Below are positions 1-23,448 of a stretch of DNA of 23,448 bases, piece by piece; the stretch's first letter is position 1; every line of letters begins with the position of its first letter. The notes under the pieces were generated by a model that saw nothing but the letters and a program-made list of their open reading frames with translations, was not told the origin of the DNA and made no database searches. This stretch comes from a virus (Duplodnaviria > Heunggongvirae > Uroviricota > Caudoviricetes): the IMG/VR virus record IMGVR_UViG_2541047941_000006. One strand, given 5' to 3'. A program made the position numbers and the translations under genes.

Positions 1-1158
1 ATGCTCACCGTTAAGCAGATTGAAGCAGCAAAGCCGAAAGAAAAACCATACCGCCTTCTCGATGGTAATGGCCTGTACCTTTATGTTCCTGTATCCGGGA
101 AAAAGGTATGGCAGCTTCGCTACAAGATTGACGGTAAGGAGAAAATCCTGACCGTCGGAAAATATCCGCTTATGACTTTGCAGGAAGCAAGGGATAAGGC
201 ATGGACTGCGAGGAAAGACATCTCGGTTGGCATCGATCCGGTAAAGGCGAAAAAGGCTTCGTCTAACAACAATTCATTTAGTGCGATTTACAAGGAATGG
301 TACGAGCACAAGAAGCAAGTCTGGTCAGTAGGCTATGCAACTGAACTTGCCAAAATGTTTGATGACGACATTTTACCCATCATCGGCGGTCTTGAGATTC
401 AGGATATTGAGCCGATGCAACTGCTGGAAGTAATCCGCAGATTTGAAGATCGCGGTGCAATGGAGCGAGCCAACAAAGCCCGCAGAAGATGCGGCGAGGT
501 TTTTCGTTACGCTATTGTCACCGGAAGGGCTAAATATAACCCGGCACCTGACCTTGCAGACGCCATGAAAGGATACCGCAAGAAGAACTTCCCGTTCCTT
601 CCAGCAGACCAGATGCCTGCATTCAACAAAGCACTGGCAACATTTTCAGGAAGTATCGTATCGCTCATTGCGACAAAAGTTTTACGTTATACAGCCCTAA
701 GAACGAAAGAGCTTCGTTCCATGCTATGGAAGAACGTCGATTTTGAAAACAGGATTATCACCATCGACGCCAGTGTGATGAAGGGACGCAAAATTCATGT
801 GGTCCCGATGTCAGACCAGGTGGTTGAACTTCTCACTACGCTAAGCTCAATCACCAAACCAGTCTCAGAGTTTGTTTTTGCCGGGCGCAACGATAAGAAG
901 AAGCCAATCTGCGAGAACGCGGTATTGCTTGTGATCAAACAAATCGGCTATGAAGGTCTGGAAAGCGGTCACGGATTCAGGCATGAATTCAGCACGATTA
1001 TGAACGAGCACGAATGGCCTGCTGACGCTATTGAAGTGCAGCTGGCACATGCCAACGGCGGATCTGTGCGCGGTATTTACAACCATGCTCAGTATCTCGA
1101 TAAGCGCAGAGAAATGATGCAGTGGTGGGCGGATTGGCTTGATGAAAAAGTGGAGTAA
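1..1158 (+). CDS. intS: Tyrosine recombinase / prophage integrase, P4-type (IntS-like, KplE1/CPS-53 family)
   Basis: 385-aa ORF starting at base 1; N-terminal KPKEKPYRLLDGNGLYLYV motif typical of P4-family integrases and a C-terminal catalytic region (HGFRHEF ... RGIYNH, the catalytic Tyr lying in the last motif). Recalled as matching E. coli IntS; paired with a TorI-like excisionase and tRNA-derived att core at the other end of the element. Confidence 0.85.
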   Translation: MLTVKQIEAAKPKEKPYRLLDGNGLYLYVPVSGKKVWQLRYKIDGKEKILTVGKYPLMTLQEARDKAWTARKDISVGIDPVKAKKASSNNNSFSAIYKEWYEHKKQVWSVGYATELAKMFDDDILPIIGGLEIQDIEPMQLLEVIRRFEDRGAMERANKARRRCGEVFRYAIVTGRAKYNPAPDLADAMKGYRKKNFPFLPADQMPAFNKALATFSGSIVSLIATKVLRYTALRTKELRSMLWKNVDFENRIITIDASVMKGRKIHVVPMSDQVVELLTTLSSITKPVSEFVFAGRNDKKKPICENAVLLVIKQIGYEGLESGHGFRHEFSTIMNEHEWPADAIEVQLAHANGGSVRGIYNHAQYLDKRREMMQWWADWLDEKVE

Positions 1159-1367
1159 TCCGGACCGTACTTCTTTATCCAGGCATAAAGGCTGTGGGTG
1201 GTGATATCGAGACGTGTTGCAACGCTGGCAACAGAATAACCGCGATCAACAACCTGTTTGACTGCTTCAGTTTTAAACTCTTCGGGATAACGCTTACCGC
1301 TCATGGGCACCTCTCTTTAAGCCATCTTAAATGACTCTGAGGTGTCTGTTAAACCCGTGGCGATTCA
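1159..1367 (-). mobile_element. IS3-family IS fragment (left end plus 5' part of orfA), truncated exactly at the intS stop codon
   Basis: Minus-strand ORF begins MSGKRYPEEFKTEAVKQVVDRGYSVASVATRLDITTHSLYAWIKKYGPD (HTH-type OrfA N-terminus) with RBS AGAGAGGTG upstream; similarity ends at about 1159, where the frame reads through the intS 3' end. The minus-strand terminus begins TGAATCG at 1367. Confidence 0.6.
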
Positions 1368-1370
1368 AAA

Positions 1371-1820
1371 CTGCGTGTTACGTTCGCCCTGGACTGTTGC
1401 GATCGTGAAGCCATAGACTGGGCCGCAAGCACGGGAGGTTACGATAAAGCGACAGTGCAGGATGTCATGTTAGGAGCGATAGAAAAACGCTTTGGCGATA
1501 AAGTACCGGAACAGTCCATCCAGTGGCTGACAGATAACGGTTCAGCGTATAGAGCGCATGAAACACGGCAGTTCGCCAGAGAGTTGAATCTGGAGCCCTG
1601 CACAACGGCAATCAGCAGTCCTCAGAGTAATGGAATGGCAGAAAGGTTCGTGAAAACGATGAAGGAAGACTACATCGCGTTCATGCCGAAACCGAATGTA
1701 AGAACGGCATTGCATAATCTTGCAGTGGCGATCGAACATTACAATGAAAACCATCCGCACAGTGCGTTGGGTTATCGCTCTCCGCGAGAATATCGACGTC
1801 AGCGGGTAACGTTAACTTAA
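1371..1820 (+). pseudogene. IS2-like (IS3 family) transposase OrfB, C-terminal DDE fragment
   Basis: In-frame translation from 1371 gives [14 protein letters not shown]...[25 protein letters not shown]...[26 protein letters not shown]...[14 protein letters not shown], the conserved C-terminal half of IS2-type OrfB. No orfA or N-terminal part is present in the same orientation; an IS2-like right terminal repeat follows to about 1852. Confidence 0.7.
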
Positions 1821-1861
1821 GATACACCCCCTGTCTGGAAATAAGGGGGCAAGAACAATGA

Positions 1862-2614
1862 TCAGATTCCCTGGTGAGTAAGAATTTTACTTTCTGAACT
1901 CCTCTGAGAGTATTGACTTGGAGAAACACCAAAATAACGTCTAAATACATAAGTAAAGTATGAGACACTGGCATAACCACAGACCTTAGCTACTTTACTA
2001 ATAGGATAACAACGAGTGCTGAGTAAATATTCAGCCATTTGCATCCTCTCATCAAGTATGATCTTACTGAATGATACCCCCTCTTCTTTCAATTTCATCT
2101 TTAGTAAACTTTCGCTGAGATATAATCTTGATGATATATCCTTAAGACGCCATGATGCAGATAAATCCGTATGAATAATCGTTTTAACTTTAGCCCCTGT
2201 GCTTTTCAAACATCCAAACAGAAATACTCCAAATTGTTTTTCAGAAGAAAATGCAGAGAGACATGTAAAAGCAATAGACTCATCAAAAATTTCTATGTAT
2301 TCAGCACAGTGATTAGCCCAACTAATTAATCCTTTAATTAAACTGAAGTCAGCAAAGTTTATTTTTAAATAAGATGGATATTCCCTACAATCAGAAATAC
2401 CCCTTAAGTTATTAGCTTTCAAATAGCGACTAATAAACTCAGCGCCAAAATCCGCCACTATCACTCTTTCAGGATATGTCAGGAAAAAATCTCTAGAGCT
2501 AGAGTCGACAAGTACAGATGAACCTCTCTCCAGAAACACACTCTCTTTTCCGAAATAAACATCAAAGGACTCCAAAATCAATATAACTGAACATGTAGTT
2601 GCCATATCATCCAC
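1862..2614 (-). CDS. AraC/XylS-family transcriptional regulator (AppY/EnvY-like), low-GC cargo
   Basis: 250-aa ORF; C-terminal double HTH signature (WRLKDISSRLYLSESLLKMKLKEEGVSFSKIILDERMQMAEYLL...KVAKVCGYASVSYFTYVFRRYFGVSPSQY); AT-rich coding and upstream region; flanked by the IS2-like fragment and IS1. Confidence 0.8.
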   Translation of the reverse strand: MDDMATTCSVILILESFDVYFGKESVFLERGSSVLVDSSSRDFFLTYPERVIVADFGAEFISRYLKANNLRGISDCREYPSYLKINFADFSLIKGLISWANHCAEYIEIFDESIAFTCLSAFSSEKQFGVFLFGCLKSTGAKVKTIIHTDLSASWRLKDISSRLYLSESLLKMKLKEEGVSFSKIILDERMQMAEYLLSTRCYPISKVAKVCGYASVSYFTYVFRRYFGVSPSQYSQRSSESKILTHQGI

Positions 2615-2826
2615 CCAATTTAACTGAAACCAGGATGAAGTATATGCATATAAAGTTCACTTTGCCAAACTTCAGTATAAAAAACCACATAAAAAATAGG
2701 GTGTGATAAAAAATACCGTAACAATAAAGCAAAGGATTATAAAATCCGTTACAGTTACAAATGATACTCAAGAAACAATTCCTTAGGAAAAACTTATTTA
2801 CAGCCAATAAGGGTAATGACTCCAAC

Positions 2827-3330
2827 TTATTGATAGTGTTTTATGTTCAGATAATGCCCGATGACTTTGTCATGCAGCTCCACCGATTTTGAGAACGACA
2901 GCGACTTCCGTCCCAGCCGTGCCAGGTGCTGCCTCAGATTCAGGTTATGCCGCTCAATTCGCTGCGTATATCGCTTGCTGATTACGTGCAGCTTTCCCTT
3001 CAGGCGGGATTCATACAGCGGCCAGCCATCCGTCATCCATATCACCACGTCAAAGGGTGACAGCAGGCTCATAAGACGCCCCAGCGTCGCCATAGTGCGT
3101 TCACCGAATACGTGCGCAACAACCGTCTTCCGGAGACTGTCATACGCGTAAAACAGCCAGCGCTGGCGCGATTTAGCCCCGACATAGCCCCACTGTTCGT
3201 CCATTTCCGCGCAGACGATGACGTCACTGCCCGGCTGTATGCGCGAGGTTACCGACTGCGGCCTGAGTTTTTTAAGTGACGTAAAATCGTGTTGAGGCCA
3301 ACGCCCATAATGCGGGCTGTTGCCCGGCAT
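2827..3330 (-). CDS. insB: IS1 InsB (expressed as InsAB' by -1 frameshift)
   Basis: 167-aa ORF overlapping the insA 3' end in the -1 frame, canonical IS1 arrangement. Confidence 0.85.
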
Positions 3331-3524
3331 CCAACGCCATTCATGGCCATATCAATGATTTTCTGGTGCGTACCGGGTTGAGAAGCGGTGTAAGTGAACT
3401 GCAGTTGCCATGTTTTACGGCAGTGAGAGCAGAGATAGCGCTGATGTCCGGCGGTGCTTTTGTCGTTACGCACCACCCCGTCAGTAGCTGAACAGGAGGG
3501 ACAGCTGATAGAAACAGAAGCCAC
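3249..3524 (-). CDS. insA: IS1 InsA
   Basis: 91-aa [46 protein letters not shown]... with zinc-finger and HTH, canonical IS1 InsA. Confidence 0.9.
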
Positions 3525-3673
3525 TGGAGCATCTCAAAAACACCATCATACACTAAATCAGTAAGTTGGCAGCATCACCGGTCGCCACCATATACGGCAG
3601 TTCTCAGGCTCAACTTTCTGAAAGGCTCGGGTGATGTAATATGCGCGTGAGATGCGCTGTGAAATTCAGATGT

Positions 3674-3697
3674 AAAAAAAGCCCCGCATCGCGAGGC
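3674..3697 (-). terminator. Putative intrinsic terminator downstream of Rz
   Basis: On the minus strand GCCUCGC-GAU-GCGGGGC hairpin (one G-U pair) followed by UUUUUUU, about 30 nt after the Rz stop. Confidence 0.45.
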
Positions 3698-3729
3698 TCA
3701 TTAAATGGACTTTGTGATTTGCAAAAAAA

Positions 3730-4188
3730 TTATTTCAGGCATTGCGTCCTGATGTATTCCTGCAGGTAGTTAACCTGCGCGGTTATCTTGTCGATTCCAC
3801 TTCGGAGACGGTAATAATTGAGTTCAGCATCTGCTGTAAGTCCTGGGCTTTCTCCATCGCCCATGCCGCTGGCTCCGGTCGTTGACTTTGCACAGGTGGC
3901 GGCGACTTGCAGGCGCTTACGCCCAGCAGAAACATCAGCACGGAGACTTTCGATAGTCGCGTTAGCATCAGCAAGCTCCTTTGTGTATCTTGCGTCGAGT
4001 TCTGCTACATCACGTTGACGCTTCCGCATGTCAGCGATGGTGGCGTTCGCCTTCTCCAGTTCACTGGCCTTGTTATCGCGCTGCTCTTTGTAGGCGATTG
4101 CGTTATCACGGTAATGATTAACAGCCCATGACAGGCAGACGATGATGCAGATAACCAGAGCATAAATAATCGCGGCGACTCTGCTCAC
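3730..4188 (-). CDS. Rz: Rz inner-membrane spanin (i-spanin)
   Basis: ORF with N-terminal TMD ([28 protein letters not shown]) and coiled-coil-like body, closely resembling lambda Rz. Probable GTG start at 4188 (track ORF starts at TTG 4203); overlaps the endolysin stop. Confidence 0.8.
3783..3974 (-). CDS. Rz1: Rz1 outer-membrane lipoprotein spanin (o-spanin), embedded in Rz +1 frame
   Basis: 63-aa ORF wholly inside Rz; signal peptide with lipobox LLGVSAC followed by a Pro-rich segment ([16 protein letters not shown]), classic Rz1. Confidence 0.7.
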
Positions 4189-4718
4189 TGATCTATCCCC
4201 CAACAGGCTAATGCGCTTTCCTGGTCACGACGAATAACCTGTCCATAGCAGTTATTTGAACGTATGCGGCAATCGCGCCCACCATCTTTTATCCACCAGC
4301 GAATCGCCTCGCATGCACCTTTACGATCACCGGCATTCAGCCGCTTATAAAACGTCGACGGGAAACACTTACCGGGGCCAATGTTATAGGGACAAAATGA
4401 CGCGATACCCGCTTTCTGTGGTTCGGTCAGTGGCACTTTAATATTGCGCTCCACCCATGCCAGCGCCTTATCCCGTTCAATGGCGTTAACCTGGTCGCAT
4501 TTTTCCTTCGACAGTTTCATACCGGGAAAAACGGGTTTTCCATCCACCACCGTGGCACCCCGACAGATGGTCCAGATGCCGGAACCATCGCGGTATGCCG
4601 TTGTGTGGTTACCTTCTTTTTCATCCAGAAACTGGTCGAGAATATCAGGCGCAGGCGCACCGACGGCAATCAGTGCCAGAACGGCAGCCGACAGGCCGTA
4701 TCTGATTTTTGCGTTCAT
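4185..4718 (-). CDS. R: Phage endolysin (lysozyme), probable SAR type, RrrQ-like
   Basis: 177-aa ORF; weakly hydrophobic Ala/Gly-rich N-terminus ([17 protein letters not shown]) ahead of the catalytic domain; sits between the pinholin/ydfR-like genes and Rz. Confidence 0.85.
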
Positions 4719-5061
4719 GGATATTTATCAGGATTTATCGGTTTCTGAACCCTGGATATGTTTATCTGTCCCGGCCTGTTGAATCAGGCAAGGAATAGTT
4801 AAATACAATAGAGAGGATTGTTTATGGACAATAGCACCATTTCTCTACAGGAGTTGCTCGACTGCATTTCCAAGCTTCGGGATGATGTAAATGCCCTTAC
4901 TGTCGCATTTTAATATCTGGCATTCTCAATTCCCAAGGAACAAATGCAACCAACACTGGCATCGCTCCAGCTTGAATCACTCAACCCCAAATGGTCCCAG
5001 CAACAACAAAATTCTTTCAAGTGGCTGGCGGTATTACTGGAAGAAAAATATGCTGGTGAAA

Positions 5062-5406
5062 TTACCATTTCGGCGGAGTATTCAGAGAACCAGTAATTCT
5101 TCCCGGTAGCTTTCCTTTGTAGGTTATCCACACATTCTGCGCCTCTAAAATTATGGGGCGCTTTTCCGGCGACAGCTCATCCCCTTCACATAACCCGGCA
5201 GCAACATCCAGGAAGACCTGTCTGATGCTCCTTCTGGCTGCTGCCTCATAAAACTCCAGCGCGGCACCTTCAACACGGTCCAGCGAGATGTCCAGGTCAA
5301 AAATTTCACCGTCAAAGCGTTTTTTGTCCCGTAACGCTAAAGTTACCGTAACTTTATTCTCAAAATTGCGGATCCCTTTCACAATCAGTTCATAGTTTTG
5401 AGTCAT
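5062..5406 (-). CDS. YdfR-like protein of unknown function in the lysis cassette
   Basis: 114-aa ORF starting 5 nt after the holin stop with RBS GGGAGAG; same holin-ydfR-lysozyme-Rz order as the Qin prophage lysis cassette (recalled). Confidence 0.65.
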   Translation of the reverse strand: MTQNYELIVKGIRNFENKVTVTLALRDKKRFDGEIFDLDISLDRVEGAALEFYEAAARRSIRQVFLDVAAGLCEGDELSPEKRPIILEAQNVWITYKGKLPGRITGSLNTPPKW

Positions 5407-5410
5407 TGAA

Positions 5411-5626
5411 TTACTCTCCCCGTGCAGCCTTACGCTTGTCTTCTTTAATCTTGAAATAAAGGTTTGTCAGGTACGTCAGCAGGCCAAATACCAGGCTACC
5501 CAGCACTCCAATTGCCGCCCACTGTGAGGGCGTGACTTTATCTAGCAGCTGTAAAAACCAGTACCCGGCACTACCTGCTGAGGTGCCATAGGCGACACCC
5601 GTTGTTAACTTATCCATGGATTTCAT
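5411..5626 (-). CDS. S: Class II holin / pinholin (S21-like) with dual-start motif
   Basis: 71-aa [31 protein letters not shown]...[35 protein letters not shown]; two TMDs; Met1-Lys-Ser-Met4 dual start typical of pinholin/antiholin pairs. Confidence 0.9.
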
Positions 5627-6199: not shown

Positions 6200-7297
6200 A
6201 TGAAAAAATTAACAGTGGCAATTTCTGCTGTAGCTGCATCAGTACTGATGGCGATGTCTGCTCAGGCAGCTGAAATTTATAATAAAGACAGTAACAAGCT
6301 GGATCTGTACGGGAAAGTTAATGCTAAGCACTACTTCTCCTCTAATGATGCAGATGATGGTGATACTACTTATGCCCGTCTTGGCTTCAAAGGTGAAACC
6401 CAAATCAACGATCAACTGACTGGTTTCGGTCAGTGGGAATATGAATTCAAAGGCAACCGCGCTGAATCTCAAGGTTCCTCCAAAGACAAAACCCGTCTTG
6501 CATTTGCAGGCCTGAAATTCGGTGACTACGGCTCAATCGATTACGGCCGTAACTACGGTGTAGCATACGACATCGGTGCGTGGACTGACGTTCTGCCAGA
6601 ATTCGGTGGCGATACCTGGACCCAAACAGATGTGTTCATGACTGGTCGCACCACTGGTGTTGCAACCTATCGTAACAACGACTTCTTTGGTCTGGTTGAT
6701 GGTCTGAACTTTGCTGCTCAGTACCAAGGCAAAAACGATCGTAGCGATTTCGATAACTACACTGAAGGTAACGGTGATGGCTTCGGTTTCTCTGCTACCT
6801 ATGAATACGAAGGATTCGGTATCGGTGCAACTTATGCGAAATCTGATCGTACCGACACTCAAGTTAATGCAGGGAAAGTTCTTCCTGAAGTATTTGCTTC
6901 CGGTAAAAATGCAGAAGTTTGGGCCGCAGGTCTGAAATATGATGCTAACAACATTTACCTGGCCACTACCTATTCTGAAACCCAGAATATGACTGTATTT
7001 GCTGATCACTTCGTTGCTAATAAAGCCCAAAACTTCGAAGCTGTTGCACAATATCAGTTCGATTTCGGTCTGCGTCCGTCCGTTGCTTACCTGCAATCTA
7101 AAGGTAAGGATCTTGGAGTATGGGGCGATCAGGACTTAGTCAAATATGTTGATGTAGGTGCAACCTATTACTTCAACAAAAATATGTCTACTTTCGTTGA
7201 TTACAAAATCAACCTGCTTGACAAAAATGACTTCACTAAAGCACTCGGTGTAAGCACTGATGACATCGTTGCTGTAGGTCTGGTTTACCAGTTCTAA
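6200..7297 (+). CDS. nmpC: Outer-membrane general porin, prophage-encoded NmpC/Lc/OmpD type (intact)
   Basis: 365-aa ORF with signal peptide ([30 protein letters not shown]), porin motifs ([31 protein letters not shown]) and C-terminal VGLVYQF; lies between Q and the lysis genes on the opposite strand, as nmpC does in DLP12. Confidence 0.85.
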
Positions 7298-9359: not shown

Positions 9360-9547
9360 GCTTCACCTCCGCAGAGGTCAAACGCTAGATGCAAAGAATT
9401 GCAGGTGCATTTCTGCATCAGTGAAGGGAGAAGAGAGTTTGGATTGTATGTGCGCATAAACGTCCCCGTTTAGCGCAGAAGTCACCGGAGTTGTTCAGGC
9501 TCCGAGGACATTATTATTGCTGGTTGATAATGGAAAATCAAAGCTTA

Positions 9548-9829
9548 CTAAGCTGAGGAGGATTTCTTGGGGTGATATTTACGGATTGCAGCATCAATAC
9601 GGACGCGGGATGGTAAGACATCGAATGCTATGTTGTAGTATTCACTATCAAACGCTTGATGTCTCACAACATTAAATTCTTTAAACTCAGTCACTTGGTA
9701 AACCACTGGTTCATTGGAATTGGTAGAACGCACTACCGATTTCGTTACCACGCTTATCTTATCAAGCCCTGCTTCATCGTTCTTTATATCGCCTTCATGA
9801 CCTAAACCAAAAACTAAGTAATCTTCCAC
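9548..9829 (-). CDS. Hypothetical protein (93 aa), low-GC insert in the nin region
   Basis: GTG start preceded by AGGAG (6-nt spacer); no family recognised; AT-rich; immediately downstream of the small exported protein. Confidence 0.5.
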   Translation of the reverse strand: MEDYLVFGLGHEGDIKNDEAGLDKISVVTKSVVRSTNSNEPVVYQVTEFKEFNVVRHQAFDSEYYNIAFDVLPSRVRIDAAIRKYHPKKSSSA

Positions 9830-9872
9830 GTTAAGCTCCTATAAGATTTTGTTATATGTCGTTTTTGGCCAA

Positions 9873-10121
9873 TTATTTCATTAAACTTTTTGAGACAAAT
9901 ACTTGTTCGCACTTTGCCATATATGGCTCTCTGCCTGATACTTCATGGTATAGAGCATGATTTAGCATAATGTTTTTCATGCTTTCTTCGCAGTCTTTCC
10001 TGCTATAAAAGACGTTTACCGGCTCTTTTGTGGTGTTGACATTCACTACTTCCACTGAACAACCTGACATATTGCTGAGGCTAGCACAGGTGCTCAAAAC
10101 CAGCACAAATAGTTCGTGCAT
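9873..10121 (-). CDS. Hypothetical small exported protein / possible lipoprotein (82 aa), low-GC insert
   Basis: ATG 10121 with strong RBS AAGGGAG (7-nt spacer); N-terminal signal-like segment MHELFVLVLSTCASLSNMSGC with a possible lipobox Cys; four Cys in total. Confidence 0.55.
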   Translation of the reverse strand: MHELFVLVLSTCASLSNMSGCSVEVVNVNTTKEPVNVFYSRKDCEESMKNIMLNHALYHEVSGREPYMAKCEQVFVSKSLMK

Positions 10122-10297
10122 AAAACGACTCCCTTATCTATGTGCTGGTTATATTGCCCAAATTCTAATAGAAATTACGACTATTTTTTAACGGCAGCAA
10201 CATCTTGTATTCCTAAACTTAGCAGAAGGCGGTGGGTAAAGACGGTACCATAGTGTCATTTCGATGGCCTCCTGTCGAAAACAATAGGCCTTCGATG

Positions 10298-10582
10298 CTA
10301 AGTTCTGTATACCGACAATACCCGTTTCATCGCGGCACTCTGGCGACACTCCTTAAAAATCATATTCGTGCTCACCTTTCCTTCCCGTTCTTCTCTGGTA
10401 GCGAACCGGTAATACACCGTTCGCCAGACCTTACCATCAACGACCAGGATTCCTGCCCGCGCCATTTTAGCCGCAGCCTGATTTATGCTGGCTACGGTTG
10501 CGCCTGTTACCGCGGCAACGTCCTGCGCACAGAAGTTCTTATGAGTCCCCAGGTAATGAATAATTGCCTCTTTGCCCGTCAT
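10298..10582 (-). CDS. ren: Ren (lambda ren-like)
   Basis: 94 aa MTGKEAIIHYLGTHKNFCAQDVAAVTGATVASINQAAAKMARAGILVVDGKVWRTVYYRFATREEREGK..., closely resembling lambda Ren; directly downstream of P. Confidence 0.8.
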   Translation of the reverse strand: MTGKEAIIHYLGTHKNFCAQDVAAVTGATVASINQAAAKMARAGILVVDGKVWRTVYYRFATREEREGKVSTNMIFKECRQSAAMKRVLSVYRT

Positions 10583-13158: not shown

Positions 13159-13207
13159 TTAATCTGAATCAAGATTAAAACTATGGTTGTTTTTAGTCAA
13201 CAACCAT
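13159..13207. promoter_or_regulatory. OR operator region with two palindromes, overlapping the PR promoter for cro
   Basis: Perfect palindromes ATGGTTGTT-N7-AACAACCAT (13183-13207) and TTAATCT-N6-AGATTAA (13159-13178); minus-strand -35 TTGACT (13195-13200) and -10 TAATCT (13172-13177) ahead of cro. Confidence 0.5.
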
Positions 13208-13213
13208 TTTCGT

Positions 13214-13242
13214 TTGATGTAATAAAACCCTGGTTGTACATT
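13214..13242 (+). promoter_or_regulatory. Putative PRM promoter giving a leaderless cI transcript
   Basis: -35 TTGATG (13214-13219), 17-bp spacer, -10 TACATT (13237-13242), then 6 nt to the cI ATG at 13249; no SD sequence. Confidence 0.4.
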
Positions 13243-13248
13243 TGGTCT

Positions 13249-13938
13249 ATGAAAACAACACTCTCAGAAAGACTTAAAGAAGCCAGATTAGCGCGAGGCC
13301 TTACACAAAAGGCGCTTGGGGATTTGGTCGGGGTTAGCCAAGCTGCTATTCAGAAAATCGAAACAGGGAAAGCTAACCAAACAACTAAAATCGTGGAGAT
13401 CGCGAACGCTTTGGGTGTGCGCGCAGAATGGTTATCTTCTGGCGTTGGAAATATGTCAGACAGTACAGTGCAACCAATACAATCAACTGTCAGCCATTCC
13501 AAATACTTTAAGATTGACGTTCTTGATATAGAAGTGAGTGCCGGGCCGGGAGTCATCAACCGTGAGTTTGTAGAAGTTCTACGCTCGGTTGAGTACTCGT
13601 TTGACGATGCTCGTCACATGTTCGATGGTAGGAAGGCAGAAAATATCCGCATCATTAACGTGCGTGGTGACAGCATGTCAGGAACGATCGAACCAGGTGA
13701 TCTGCTGTTCGTTGATATCACGGTTAAATCTTTCGACGGTGATGGTATCTATGCGTTTCTGTATGACGACACAGCCCATGTAAAGCGCCTGCAAATGATG
13801 AAGGATAAGCTGCTGGTTATCTCTGATAACAAAAGCTACTCACCGTGGGACCCGATCGAGAAAGATGAGATGAACCGGGTATTTATCTTCGGGAAAGTTA
13901 TTGGGAGCATGCCGCAGACGTATAGGAAGCATGGATAG
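13249..13938 (+). CDS. cI: CI-type prophage repressor (HTH plus S24 LexA-like autopeptidase domain)
   Basis: 229 aa from ATG 13249 (track ORF starts upstream at 13183); N-terminal HTH (LTQKALGDLVGVSQAAIQKIETGK); C-terminal peptidase motifs (VRGDSMSGTIEPGDLLFVD ... HVKRLQ). Confidence 0.85.
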   Translation: MKTTLSERLKEARLARGLTQKALGDLVGVSQAAIQKIETGKANQTTKIVEIANALGVRAEWLSSGVGNMSDSTVQPIQSTVSHSKYFKIDVLDIEVSAGPGVINREFVEVLRSVEYSFDDARHMFDGRKAENIRIINVRGDSMSGTIEPGDLLFVDITVKSFDGDGIYAFLYDDTAHVKRLQMMKDKLLVISDNKSYSPWDPIEKDEMNRVFIFGKVIGSMPQTYRKHG

Positions 13939-14006: not shown

Positions 14007-15080
14007 ATGGAGAACTTAATGGATACTTTAAAATATGAGAAATTCTCTGATTTTGATCACAATGACCCATTTTTTGACTCTTTAAAAAAAGATTATAAAG
14101 AGTTTCCTCTTTGGTTAGAAAAAAAAGCCAGAGAAGGAGAATCAGCTTATGTGCTCTATGATGACAAGCATAAAATCGAAGGTTTTATGTATCTAAAAGA
14201 AAATGATGATGCAAATGACATTAATCCAGCGCTCCCACCAGGACGTCATCTAAAGATAGGAACATTCAAATTTGAATCTAAAGGCACCCTTCGCGGACAA
14301 CGATTTCTAAAAAAAGCGTTTGACCATGCATTTTCATCAAAATCTGATGATATTTATGTTACTGTTTTCGACAAACACGTCCATCTAATAAAACTTTTCC
14401 AAACGTACGGATTTTACATTCATGGTGAAAAAGAAACACATAACGGGAAAGAGTTTGTATATGCGAGGTCTTTGCATGAGCCTTATGGTGATATTTTATT
14501 AGATTACCCTCGAATAATGACATCAAGGGCCAACAAATATTTACTGGCGATTTATCCCGAATATCACACTAGACTATTCCCTGATTCAAAACTTGTAAAT
14601 GAATCACCAGATATTGTCAAAGATATATCCCATGCTAACAGCATTCATAAAATTTACATATGTGGAATGCGTTCTGTGATGGGAATGAAAAGAGGAGATA
14701 TCATTGTCATCTATAGAACCGGAGACAAAAAAGGGCCAGCTCGCTATCGTTCTGTAGCCAGTACATTATGTGTAGTTGAGAGCGTAAAAAATATTTCTGA
14801 ATTTTTAAGCGAAGATAGTTTTGTAGACTATTGTATTCGTTTTAGCGTATTTTCTGAAGATGAACTCAGAAAAATCTATAAAGAACGTCGATACCCTTTC
14901 ATTATAAGATTCACATACAATCTGTCTTTGCCAAAGAGACCCAATCGTGCTATTTTAATAGATCATGTGGGGCTAAATGGTTCGCGTGCATTCCGATGGA
15001 GTCACTTTAAACTCACAAATGAGCAGTTCTTAAAGATCATCGAGTTAGGCAAGATAAATGAAAGTTTTATTATCCATTAA
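14007..15080 (+). CDS. Hypothetical 357-aa protein: N-terminal GNAT-like acyltransferase region fused to a C-terminal PUA-like region (candidate exclusion/defence effector)
   Basis: Long AT-rich ORF directly downstream of cI (rexA position); GNAT-like motifs by eye (GTLRGQRFLKKAFDHAF; LFQTYGFYIHGE); C-terminal segment with PUA/ASCH-like strands (LLAIYPEYHTRLF; KRGDIIVIYRTGD). More likely start is ATG 14019 (GGAG 6 nt upstream). Domain calls are unverified. Confidence 0.7.
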   Translation: MENLMDTLKYEKFSDFDHNDPFFDSLKKDYKEFPLWLEKKAREGESAYVLYDDKHKIEGFMYLKENDDANDINPALPPGRHLKIGTFKFESKGTLRGQRFLKKAFDHAFSSKSDDIYVTVFDKHVHLIKLFQTYGFYIHGEKETHNGKEFVYARSLHEPYGDILLDYPRIMTSRANKYLLAIYPEYHTRLFPDSKLVNESPDIVKDISHANSIHKIYICGMRSVMGMKRGDIIVIYRTGDKKGPARYRSVASTLCVVESVKNISEFLSEDSFVDYCIRFSVFSEDELRKIYKERRYPFIIRFTYNLSLPKRPNRAILIDHVGLNGSRAFRWSHFKLTNEQFLKIIELGKINESFIIH

Positions 15081-15435
15081 GCCTGAGTTTGCAGAAAAAA
15101 TATTGAACGGAACAAAGCGGTTCGAGTTTCGTAAAGGTATATTCAAAAATCCGCAAATTAGCACCGTTGTTATTTATGCCACGATGCCATTAGGTAAAGT
15201 TGTTGGTCAATTCCGTATTGAATCAATACTAAGTGACGAACCGGAATCTCTTTGGAAAAAGACGGAAAAACACGCAGGTATTTCTAAGCAATTTTATGAC
15301 TCATATTATTCAGGTAGAGAAAAGGCCTACGCAATAAAAATTGGTGAAGTGGAAAGATATAAAGAACCAATTCCTATCTCTGCTCTAGGGAGTAATATTA
15401 AGCCACCACAATCATATCTTTACCTACCTGCGTAA
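15058..15435 (+). CDS. ASCH-domain (PUA-like) protein, 125 aa, translationally coupled to the upstream gene
   Basis: N-terminus MKVLLSIKPEFAEKILNGTKRFEFRK matches the ASCH beta1/GxKxxExR signature; start overlaps the upstream gene by 23 nt; AT-rich. Confidence 0.7.
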   Translation: MKVLLSIKPEFAEKILNGTKRFEFRKGIFKNPQISTVVIYATMPLGKVVGQFRIESILSDEPESLWKKTEKHAGISKQFYDSYYSGREKAYAIKIGEVERYKEPIPISALGSNIKPPQSYLYLPA

Positions 15436-21428: not shown

Positions 21429-21470
21429 GCCTGATTTGCAGGTTCGATTCCCTATTCGGAGATAGCACTC

Positions 21471-22200: not shown

Positions 22201-23448
22201 CTATATTGCTGAAGGTACAGGCGTTTCCATAACTATTTGCTCGCGTTTTTTACTCAAGAAGAAAATGCCAAATAGCAACATCAGGCAGACAATACCCGAA
22301 ATTGCGAAGAAAACTGTCTGGTAGCCTGCGTGGTCAAAGAGTATCCCAGTCGGCGTTGAAAGCAGCACAATCCCAAGCGAACTGGCAATTTGAAAACCAA
22401 TCAGAAAGATCGTCGACGACAGGCGCTTATCAAAATTTGCCACGCTGTATTTGAAGACGGATATGACACAAAGTGGAACCTCAATAGCATGTAACAGCTT
22501 CACTAATGAAATAATCCAGGGGTTAACGAACAGCGCGCAGGAAAGGATACGCAACGCCATAATCACAACACCGATAAGTAATGCATTTTTTGGCCCTACC
22601 CGATTCACAAAGAAAGGAATAATCGCCATGCATAGCGCTTCGAGTACCACCTGGAATGAGTTGAGATAACCATACAGGCGCGTTCCTACATCGTGTGATT
22701 CGAATAAACCTGCATAAAAGACAGGAAAAAGTTGTTGATCAAAAATGTTATAGAAAGACCACGTCCCCACAATAAATATGACGAAAACCCAGAAGTTTCG
22801 ATCCTTGAAAACTGCGATAAAATCCTCTTTTTTTACCCCTCCCGCATCCGCCGCTACGCACTGGTGATCCTTATCTTTAAAACACATGTTGATCATCATA
22901 AATACAGCGCCAAATAGCGAGACCAACCAGAAGTTGATATGGGGACTGATACTAAAAAATATGCCGGCAAAGAACGCGCCAATAGCATAGCCAAAAGATC
23001 CCCAGGCGCGCGCTGTTCCATATTCGAAATGAAAATTTCGCGCCATTTTTTCGGTGAAGCTGTCAAGCAAACCGCATCCCGCCAGATACCCCAGGCCAAA
23101 AAAGAGCGCCCCCAGAATTAGACCTACAGAAAAATTGCTTTGCAGTAACGGTTCATAAACGTAAATCATAAACGGTCCGGTCAAGACCAGGATGAAACTC
23201 ATACACCAGATGAGCGGTTTCTTCAGACCGAGTTTATCCTGAACGATGCCGTAGAACATCATAAATAGAATGCTGGTAAACTGGTTGACCGAATAAAGTG
23301 TACCTAATTCCGTCCCTGTCAACCCTAGATGTCCTTTCAGCCAAATAGCGTATAACGACCACCACAGCGACCAGGAAATAAAAAAGAGAAATGAGTAACT
23401 GGATGCAAAACGATAGTACGCATTTCTGAATGGAATATTCAGTGCCAT
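22201..23448 (-). CDS. cscB: Sucrose:H+ symporter, LacY-family MFS permease (CscB)
   Basis: 415-aa 12-TMD ORF whose start codon is the last base of the window; MALNIPFRNAYYRFASSYSFLFFISWSLWWSLYAIWLKGHLG... recalled as CscB; oligosaccharide:H+ symporter family motifs. Confidence 0.85.
   Translation of the reverse strand: MALNIPFRNAYYRFASSYSFLFFISWSLWWSLYAIWLKGHLGLTGTELGTLYSVNQFTSILFMMFYGIVQDKLGLKKPLIWCMSFILVLTGPFMIYVYEPLLQSNFSVGLILGALFFGLGYLAGCGLLDSFTEKMARNFHFEYGTARAWGSFGYAIGAFFAGIFFSISPHINFWLVSLFGAVFMMINMCFKDKDHQCVAADAGGVKKEDFIAVFKDRNFWVFVIFIVGTWSFYNIFDQQLFPVFYAGLFESHDVGTRLYGYLNSFQVVLEALCMAIIPFFVNRVGPKNALLIGVVIMALRILSCALFVNPWIISLVKLLHAIEVPLCVISVFKYSVANFDKRLSSTIFLIGFQIASSLGIVLLSTPTGILFDHAGYQTVFFAISGIVCLMLLFGIFFLSKKREQIVMETPVPSAI

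What the first reader, a model, noticed from the sequence alone, without database searches (positions are those of the whole stretch)
1862..2811. Orphan low-GC AraC-family regulator boxed in by an IS2-like fragment and IS1, in place of the phage structural genes
A 250-aa AraC/XylS-type regulator (AppY/EnvY/Rns-like C-terminal HTH) with an AT-rich upstream region lies where head/tail genes would be. Prophage-borne AraC regulators of this type commonly rewire host stress, acid-resistance or adhesin genes; the IS flanking suggests it is mobilisable cargo that survived when the rest of the late region was lost.
Basis: partly seen in the sequence, partly recalled or inferred. Interest (0 to 1): 0.55.

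Follow-up and report, generated by a model that had tools for sequence, protein, structure and literature searches.

The report
Known phage-borne acid-resistance regulator PatE
The gene is a near-identical copy of PatE, an already characterised prophage-encoded AraC-type activator of E. coli acid-resistance genes, sitting in a decayed prophage whose head and tail genes were lost next to an IS1 element, so the finding is real but ordinary.

Summary
The ORF is real. It is 247 aa from the ATG at 2605 (250 aa from the GTG at 2614), has 35% GC, and carries a C-terminal AraC double-HTH domain. It is 244/247 identical to the only AraC-family gene of prophage CP-933H/Sp1 in E. coli O157:H7 EDL933/Sakai. 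That gene is Z0321, PatE, a published RpoS-dependent activator of gadE/hdeAB acid resistance.

About 650 of 5,426 complete E. coli genomes carry the gene. So do viable lambdoid phages (ev099, mEp332, PhiR70_1), where patE plus the same dead IS3-family fragments lies between the tail-fibre assembly gene and attP/int. The "IS2-like fragment" is therefore inherited phage baggage, not a decay boundary or a mobilising element.

The IS1 (2812-3579) is complete but has no target duplication. It marks the joint where the rest of the patE upstream region and all head/tail genes were lost. The prophage sits at argW (intS at 1-1158, attR core at 21436-21451).

One wrinkle is that this allele carries R170M. 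The position aligns with MarA Arg46 in the first recognition helix and is K/R in every relative examined. About 15% of patE carriers have the M allele. Activity may be altered, but this is untested.

Verdict: already known, low interest.

The parts
1..1158 (+). intS-type tyrosine integrase (385 aa) of the argW prophage; context, left end of the prophage
   Evidence: ORF. 99.7% identical DNA in STEC409, annotated 'prophage integrase IntS' directly after tRNA-Arg.
1158..1304 (-). Truncated IS3-family orfA piece (HTH_Tnp_1), non-functional
   Evidence: Pfam hit on ORF 1089-1310. RefSeq 'transposase, incomplete, missing C-terminus' at the equivalent position.
1368..1820 (+). Truncated IS3-family orfB piece (rve/rve_3 integrase core, N-terminus missing); on the opposite strand to the orfA piece
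   Evidence: Pfam. RefSeq 'integrase core domain-containing protein, missing N-terminus'. Sakai annotation 'ISEc48, family IS3, partial'. Present next to patE in phages ev099 and mEp332.
1862..2605 (-). patE orthologue, 247 aa, AraC/XylS-family activator; allele D69G, P151S, R170M relative to EDL933 PatE
   Evidence: Identified as Z0321/PatE through and PMC10877973.
2606..2811 (-). Retained 206 nt of the native AT-rich patE upstream region (30% GC). It holds one sigma-70-like consensus match (TTGGCA-18-TATACT, 2668-2639) and the SD-like GGGTGG.
   Evidence: The native intergenic region is 823 nt in EDL933 and about 1.5 kb in phage ev099. The promoter match is a consensus hit only and is not above chance for the region.
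2812..3579 (-). Complete IS1 (768 bp; insA/insB on the minus strand, same direction as patE). No target-site duplication, so it is a rearrangement/deletion joint.
   Evidence: Boundaries and flanks GCCAATAAG / GGTCGCCAC. The patE-side junction is shared by 122 of 5,426 genomes, with different DNA on the far side in different strains.
3580..5626 (-). Surviving late region: terminator-like hairpin (3699-3679), Rz (3730-4203), lysozyme (4185-4718), DUF1327 protein (5062-5406), holin (5411-5626); context
   Evidence: (Pfam Phage_lysis, Phage_lysozyme, DUF1327, Phage_holin_2_1 on the identical contig L012).
21436..21451 (+). attR core: 16 nt identical to the 3' part of tRNA-Arg (argW); right end of the prophage
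   Evidence: Homology with related prophages ends at 21439.

Best explanation
Window 1862-2605 (minus strand) is an orthologue of patE. PatE is the prophage-encoded AraC/XylS-family activator first described in E. coli O157:H7 EDL933 (Z0321, prophage CP-933H, O-island 8).

Shown here: the protein is full length and 99% identical to the EDL933 protein. It has the family's C-terminal double helix-turn-helix DNA-binding domain and a YdeO/GadW-like N-terminal domain. It sits in its native phage position, the b region between the side tail-fibre genes and the integration module. It is accompanied by the same dead IS3-family fragments as in viable lambdoid phages.

Taken from the literature: PatE is expressed in an RpoS-dependent way in stationary phase. 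It binds the hdeA promoter between -132 and -45. It raises transcription of gadE, gadBC and hdeAB, which increases survival at low pH. In EHEC it indirectly lowers LEE expression.

Inferred: in this strain it acts in trans on the same chromosomal acid-fitness-island promoters as a lysogenic-conversion (moron) gene.

The prophage is an argW-integrated lambdoid remnant. An IS1 that inserted 206 nt upstream of patE lies at a rearrangement joint. At that joint the rest of the upstream region and all packaging, head and tail genes are missing, and the IS1 now abuts the end of the lysis cassette.
For: Family: Pfam HTH_18 and HTH_AraC above cut-off. Best solved relative is the GadX DNA-binding domain 3mkl, E 6e-24. 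Best NCBIfam models are YdeO and GadX.

Identity: 244/247 to EDL933 WP_000246059.1. That is the only AraC-family gene inside CP-933H/Sp1 at thrW. Z0321 is listed as 'putative regulator (prophage CP-933H)', O-island 8, with a WT/rpoS expression ratio of 6 (PMC2907692). PatE = z0321, with its acid-resistance role, is stated in PMC10877973 and PMC10057817.

Synteny: 1,428 bp (window 1384-2811) are 99.3% identical to EDL933. 1,737 bp (1075-2811) are 99.1-99.3% identical to phages mEp332 and ev099.

Phage position: J, lom, tail fibre, tail-fibre assembly, patE, IS3 pieces, int, xis in ev099 and mEp332.

Prevalence: about 651 of 5,426 complete E. coli genomes.

IS1 joint: no target duplication. The far side of the IS1 varies among strains that share the near junction.

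Prophage limits: argW upstream in STEC409 and the attR core.
Against: No experiment on this allele exists.

R170M replaces a residue that is K or R in PatE of EDL933, the phage copies, YdeO, GadX, GadW, AppY, EnvY and four more distant homologues. It aligns with MarA Arg46 in 1BL0 numbering. By my recollection of the MarA-DNA structure that residue contacts DNA. Binding could therefore be weakened or changed.

All three nucleotide differences from EDL933 in the CDS are non-synonymous.

Only 206 nt of an 823-1,500 nt native upstream region remain. Native regulation, whether through RpoS or any silencer, may be lost.

The equation Z0321 = WP_000246059.1 rests on it being the only AraC gene in CP-933H. 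The primary paper (Bender et al. 2012) was not available to read.
Confidence: 0.88

Rival explanations
1. It is PatE by descent but functionally attenuated or dead in this lineage. R170M cripples the first recognition helix, and the IS1 has cut the gene off from most of its native control region. The gene would be a decaying passenger of a decaying prophage.
For: The M170 position is K/R in all 11 relatives aligned and in the phage copies. M170 was seen only in IS1-linked copies in the eight loci whose allele was computed or annotated: the window, L010, L013, STEC409, Res13, 13P477T and 2009C-3133, plus the identical contig L012. There are 3 non-synonymous and 0 synonymous differences from EDL933. 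Res13-type strains have lost everything upstream of about 15 nt before the start codon.
Against: The ORF is intact in every copy examined. The M allele is in 101 of 657 records across different chromosomal sites (argW, att-lambda), so it has persisted. One substitution in one of two HTH motifs need not abolish binding. A promoter-like site and the SD are retained. The M170/IS1 association is most simply one lineage identical by descent and is not evidence of selection.
Confidence: 0.25
2. One reading: an IS-bounded, IS-mobilisable regulator cassette that moved into, or survived in, the place of the late genes because of its IS flanks.
For: The gene is flanked by IS-derived DNA on both sides. 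The same gene is found at three or more chromosomal sites: thrW, att-lambda and argW.
Against: The IS3-family pieces are truncated and lie on opposite strands, and no second intact IS is present. The same pieces sit next to patE in viable phages, without IS1. The different chromosomal sites are therefore explained by phage integration and by exchange of integration modules. An 84-nt intS remnant sits beside a lambda-type attP/int in ev099 and mEp332, and a full intS sits there in the window. IS1 lacks a target duplication here, which indicates a deletion or rearrangement joint rather than a transposition of the cassette.
Confidence: 0.04
3. The protein mainly serves the phage, for example by controlling phage or superinfection genes, or it has a regulon in this non-EHEC host unrelated to acid resistance.
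For: It is conserved at 97-98% in viable temperate phages. Relatives such as AppY are pleiotropic (PMC10057817).
Against: Published data tie PatE to gadE, gadBC and hdeAB. A preprint reports raised acid survival on overexpressing a 'PatE' homologue in Nissle 1917, though I did not check that sequence against this one. The b-region position is typical of non-essential conversion genes.
Confidence: 0.05

Closest known systems
PatE (Z0321 / ECs0287, prophage CP-933H / Sp1, E. coli O157:H7)
   Same: 244/247 identical and the same length. The 3' flank (IS3-family fragment) and the first 206 nt of upstream DNA are the same. It is prophage cargo next to the integration module.
   Different: Three substitutions (D69G, P151S, R170M). 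The host prophage is at argW with an IntS integrase rather than at thrW. An IS1 lies 206 nt upstream, and the rest of the upstream region and the tail genes are deleted.
patE copies in viable lambdoid phages ev099 (Radostvirus), mEp332, PhiR70_1
   Same: 97-98% identical protein. 1,737 bp of colinear DNA, including both IS3-family fragments and 84 nt of the intS 3' end.
   Different: The phages keep about 1.5 kb of upstream DNA, tail-fibre genes and a lambda-type attP-int-xis module. They have R at position 170 and no IS1.
YdeO, GadW, GadX (E. coli acid-fitness regulators)
   Same: Same AraC subfamily. YdeO aligns end to end (NCBIfam, residues 4-238). Identity is 33% to YdeO and GadW and 27% to GadX. 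The literature reports the same target pathway.
   Different: Far below the equivalog cut-offs (143 vs 348 bits for YdeO, 110 vs 500 for GadX). These are chromosomal core or island genes, not phage cargo.
   Same: Prophage-associated AraC-family regulators. AppY also feeds into acid resistance (PMC10057817).
   Different: Only 27% and 26% identical. They are not orthologues.
Rns/CsvR/ToxT virulence regulators
   Same: Detectable similarity over the DNA-binding domain and part of the N-terminal domain (E about 1e-15 to 1e-13).
   Different: Distant. No adjacent fimbrial or toxin operon. Ligand (fatty-acid) binding residues were not examined.

Membership tests
AraC/XylS family | C-terminal domain of about 100 aa with two helix-turn-helix motifs | tested here: met
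   Pfam HTH_18 54.6 bits (cut-off 33.6) and HTH_AraC 54.2 bits (cut-off 26.6). GadX DNA-binding domain 3mkl E 6e-24.
PatE orthologue | Near-identity over the full length to Z0321 of EDL933 | tested here: met
   244/247, no gaps. Z0321 is equated with EDL933_RS01490 because it is the only AraC gene in CP-933H. That last step is an inference.
PatE orthologue | Conserved flanking DNA / prophage b-region position | tested here: met
   1,428 bp shared with EDL933 and 1,737 bp with phages ev099 and mEp332. Position between the tail-fibre assembly gene and int.
PatE orthologue | Activates gadE/hdeAB and raises acid survival; binds hdeA -132..-45 | not testable with these tools
   Known only from the literature for the EDL933 allele (PMC10877973).
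PatE orthologue | Basic residue (K/R) at the helix-3 position equivalent to MarA Arg46 | tested here: not met
   M170 in the window. K/R in all 11 relatives and in the phage copies. This is a conserved feature rather than a formal family definition. It lowers confidence in full activity, not in orthology.
YdeO (NCBIfam NF007407 equivalog) | Score at or above the curated cut-off of 348 bits | tested here: not met
   143.3 bits. 33% identity.
GadX (NCBIfam NF007432 equivalog) | Score at or above the curated cut-off of 500 bits | tested here: not met
   109.9 bits. 27% identity.
AppY / EnvY orthologue | High full-length identity to the K-12 proteins | tested here: not met
   27% and 26% identity.
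IS-bounded composite transposon | Two transposition-competent IS copies flanking the cargo, with a target-site duplication outside | tested here: not met
   One side has only truncated IS3-family pieces on opposite strands. The IS1 has no target duplication.

The most novel reading that the evidence does not exclude
The M170 allele is found in the IS1-linked prophage remnants sampled here, not in the viable phages or O157 examined. It could be a naturally re-tuned PatE with weakened or shifted promoter recognition. Together with the IS1 truncation of the upstream region, that would be a step in host domestication, or silencing, of a phage-delivered acid-resistance activator.
Probability: 0.15. 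Interest if true: 0.3.

Novelty: already known. Interest (0 to 1): 0.12.

Why it matters
It matters little beyond correct annotation. Public records name this protein only 'AraC family transcriptional regulator' or 'helix-turn-helix domain-containing protein'. A functional name, PatE, exists in the literature, and roughly one in eight complete E. coli genomes, plus several isolated lambdoid phages, carry the gene. The phage data show that temperate phages can deliver an acid-resistance activator as a conversion gene. The R170M allele gives a cheap natural test of the role of the first recognition helix in this subfamily.

Tried and rejected
(1) Reading the primary PatE and PsrB papers (PMC3416394, PMC4288888). 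They are not held, so I relied on a review, the RpoS microarray paper and the AppY paper.

(2) Fetching EDL933 as NC_002655. It is not in the collection. I used NZ_CP008957 and Sakai NC_002695 instead.

(3) Looking for the window's source among complete E. coli genomes. No record covers 80% or more of the window. An exact 12.6-kb match was found in draft assembly GCA_000461315.1.

(4) YdeO, GadX, AppY or EnvY orthology. Rejected on score and identity.

(5) Composite-transposon reading. Rejected (see rival explanations).

(6) Independent recurrence of IS1 at the same site as evidence of selection. Rejected. The Res13 (IS1 at 2620) and 13P477T arrangements are best read as secondary adjacent deletions from the same 2811/2812 insertion. 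One clearly independent IS1 insertion, with a target duplication, lies about 220 nt further upstream in strain SCEC020026. That fits IS1's known preference for AT-rich DNA.

(7) Promoter scan. One 10/12 consensus match upstream of patE, but the number of hits in the region is at chance level, so no promoter is claimed.

(8) PADLOC scan of PatE. No hit.

(9) Not done: placing PsrA and PsrB relative to PatE. O157 genomes gave only one blastn place, so these are less than about 65-70% identical at DNA level. I also did not check the Nissle 'PatE' sequence.

Full report
**1. Observation**

The window has an intact minus-strand ORF at 1862..2614 (250 aa from GTG). An ATG at 2605 lies 7 nt downstream of GGGTGG. 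It is the start RefSeq uses for the identical gene in other genomes. The product is therefore most likely 247 aa.

Pfam places HTH_18 and HTH_AraC on the C-terminus, both above their gathering scores. GC is 35.1% in the CDS and 30.1% in the 206 nt upstream, against 45.6% for the window.

A complete 768-bp IS1 lies at 2812-3579. On the other side are two truncated IS3-family pieces. One is an orfA N-terminal piece on the minus strand. The other is an orfB C-terminal piece on the plus strand. The Sakai genome labels the equivalent stretch 'ISEc48, family IS3, partial'.

The gene lies between an integrase (1-1158) and the lysis cassette (3730-5626). The protein is probably 247 aa rather than 250. 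The fragment is IS3-family (ISEc48), not specifically IS2.

**2. What it is**

The DNA of 1830-2815 occurs at 95% identity or better in about 651 of 5,426 complete E. coli genomes, including O157:H7.

In EDL933 and Sakai the match falls in prophage CP-933H/Sp1 at thrW. There it is the only AraC-family gene: EDL933_RS01490 (WP_000246059.1) and ECs_0287. The window protein is 244/247 identical to it, with no gaps.

Z0321 is described as the 'putative regulator (prophage CP-933H)' of O-island 8 and is RpoS-dependent, with a WT/rpoS ratio of 6 (PMC2907692). A 2024 review states that z0321 encodes PatE, an AraC/XylS-family protein. The review reports three things about it:
- It activates gadB, gadC, gadE and hdeAB.
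- It acts on the hdeA promoter between -132 and -45.
- It lowers expression of several LEE genes (PMC10877973; also PMC10057817).

I could not read the primary paper. The step 'Z0321 = the only AraC gene of CP-933H' is an inference, though a strong one.

Public databases carry the window's exact protein sequence under generic names only.

**3. Relatives**

- NCBIfam ranks YdeO first (143 bits, aligned end to end) and GadX second. Both are far below the equivalog cut-offs.
- In a MAFFT alignment, identity is 33% to YdeO and GadW, 27% to GadX and AppY, and 26% to EnvY.
- The best solved relative is the GadX DNA-binding domain (3mkl). Rns, CsvR and ToxT follow.

PatE is thus a distinct member of the acid-fitness AraC subgroup. 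It is not an AppY, EnvY or Rns orthologue.

**4. Context**

The window's 1-3579 is 99.7% identical to strain STEC409, where tRNA-Arg (argW) lies just upstream of intS. A 16-nt copy of the argW 3' part lies at 21436-21451, where homology with related prophages ends. Beyond it is a LacY-family permease.

The window therefore holds almost a whole argW-integrated lambdoid remnant, in this order:
- intS
- IS3-family pieces
- patE
- IS1
- Rz, R, DUF1327 protein and S
- porin
- Q
- nin region
- P and O
- cro and cI
- gam, bet and exo
- attR

The window is 100% identical over 12.6 kb to draft assembly GCA_000461315.1.

**5. patE is phage cargo in its native place**

tblastn against phage genomes finds patE at 97-98% identity in phages ev099 (genus Radostvirus), mEp332 and PhiR70_1. 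In ev099 the order is J, lom, tail fibre, tail-fibre assembly, about 1.5 kb, patE, IS3 orfB piece, IS3 orfA piece, int, xis, exo, bet and gam. mEp332 shows the same order as far as the IS3 pieces, where the record ends.

Window 1075-2811 is colinear with these phages at 99.1-99.3%. That stretch includes both IS3 pieces and the last 84 nt of intS. The same unit sits at the right end of att-lambda prophages in other E. coli. A shorter version (1384-2811) is in CP-933H.

The IS3-family fragment is therefore old baggage carried by viable phages. It is not a scar of this prophage's decay, and it cannot mobilise anything.

The different chromosomal sites (thrW, att-lambda, argW) follow from phage integration and from exchange of integration modules. 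The window has a full intS. The lambda-int phages have an 84-nt intS stump.

**6. The IS1**

The 9 nt on either side of the IS1 differ (GCCAATAAG and GGTCGCCAC), so there is no target duplication. The patE-side junction at 2811/2812 is shared by 122 genomes. The far side differs from strain to strain:

| Strain or locus | Far side of the IS1 |
|---|---|
| STEC409 | yadM fimbrial genes |
| L010 / L011 | a 1.6-kb DUF1398/T5orf172 segment |
| 13P477T | native upstream DNA minus 550 bp, then tail-fibre genes |
| Window | the end of the lysis cassette |

The simplest reading is one ancestral IS1 insertion followed by adjacent deletions and rearrangements. In the window's arrangement the rest of the patE upstream region and all packaging, head and tail genes are missing beside it.

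A separate IS1 insertion with a target duplication lies about 220 nt further upstream in strain SCEC020026. That fits IS1's taste for AT-rich DNA.

**7. How it most likely works**

By orthology and the literature, PatE is made mainly in stationary phase under RpoS. Through its two HTH motifs it binds AT-rich sites upstream of hdeA, and directly or indirectly of gadE. It raises expression of the glutamate-dependent acid-resistance system and the HdeAB chaperones, so the lysogen survives low pH better.

What is shown here is family, orthology, intactness and genomic position. The regulon and the phenotype are taken from published work on the EDL933 allele.

**8. Caveats on activity**

The allele differs from EDL933 at D69G, P151S and R170M. 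All three nucleotide differences are non-synonymous.

Position 170 is K or R in EDL933 PatE, the F3_13_1_3 allele, YdeO, GadX, GadW, AppY, EnvY and four more distant homologues. It is R in the phage copies. It aligns with MarA residue 44 of the 127-aa K-12 annotation, which is Arg46 in the 129-aa numbering of 1BL0. From my recollection of the MarA-DNA structure (Rhee et al. 1998), that residue is a DNA-contacting residue of helix 3.

The exact 61-mer carrying the M codon is in 101 of 657 records. In the eight loci whose allele I computed or read from the annotation, M170 always came with the IS1 junction or a derivative of it. This is most simply one lineage identical by descent.

Only 206 nt of the native upstream region remain, against 823 nt in EDL933 and about 1.5 kb in ev099. 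One 10/12 sigma-70-like match (2668-2639) is retained. Such matches are at chance frequency in this region. The IS1 genes point the same way as patE, so read-through is conceivable but untested.

**9. Verdict**

The finding is real, and its general interpretation is right: a prophage-borne AraC regulator that rewires acid resistance. But the gene is the already characterised PatE. It is widespread in E. coli and carried by isolated lambdoid phages. The IS-mobilisation idea is not supported. Novelty: already known. Interest is low. The only mildly interesting residue of the analysis is the R170M recognition-helix allele linked to the IS1-truncated control region.

Noticed in passing
window 14007-15435 (+): Two overlapping ORFs (357 aa and 125 aa) immediately downstream of the cI-type repressor (13183-13938), in the position rexAB holds in lambda. 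They match PADLOC candidate defence system PDC-M11, components A (E 2e-133) and B (E 7e-52). The larger has no Pfam hit. Its neighbour is annotated as an ASCH-domain protein in a related genome.
   Followed up: partly
window 6200-7297 (+): An intact 365-aa Gram-negative porin gene (Pfam Porin_1, E 1e-156) lies between the Q antiterminator and the holin, on the opposite strand to the late genes. It is annotated OmpC/porin in related prophages.
   Followed up: no
window 1075-1158 and loci L005, L006, L016, L017, L019: The last 84 nt of intS persist as a stump next to the IS3-family pieces in phages and prophages that use a lambda-type attP-int-xis module. This is a trace of an integration-module exchange between argW-type and att-lambda-type phages.
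   Followed up: partly
window 9541-10579, compared with L006 15668-17599 and hits H26, H37: The stretch between replication gene P and the nin genes is variable. Related prophages carry a SIR2-family protein, a 'SNIPE associated domain' protein or a DGQHR-domain protein there, while the window has only short unannotated ORFs. It looks like a defence-gene hotspot.
   Followed up: no
window 22201-23448 (-): Outside the prophage, just past attR, is a 415-aa LacY-family sugar symporter (Pfam LacY_symp, E 3e-193), annotated 'oligosaccharide MFS transporter' in a related genome. From memory, the sucrose (csc) locus with cscB lies at argW in some E. coli. This was not verified.
   Followed up: no
L021 (E. 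coli SCEC020026) 3967-4734: A second, independent IS1 insertion with an 8-10 bp target duplication lies about 220 nt further upstream of patE than in the window. This strain carries a more divergent patE allele with five substitutions and R at 170.
   Followed up: yes
window 1862-2605: All three nucleotide differences from the EDL933 patE CDS are non-synonymous and none is synonymous. The numbers are too small for a selection test.
   Followed up: partly
window 5062-5406 (-): A 114-aa DUF1327 protein is inserted between the holin and the lysozyme gene of the lysis cassette.
   Followed up: no
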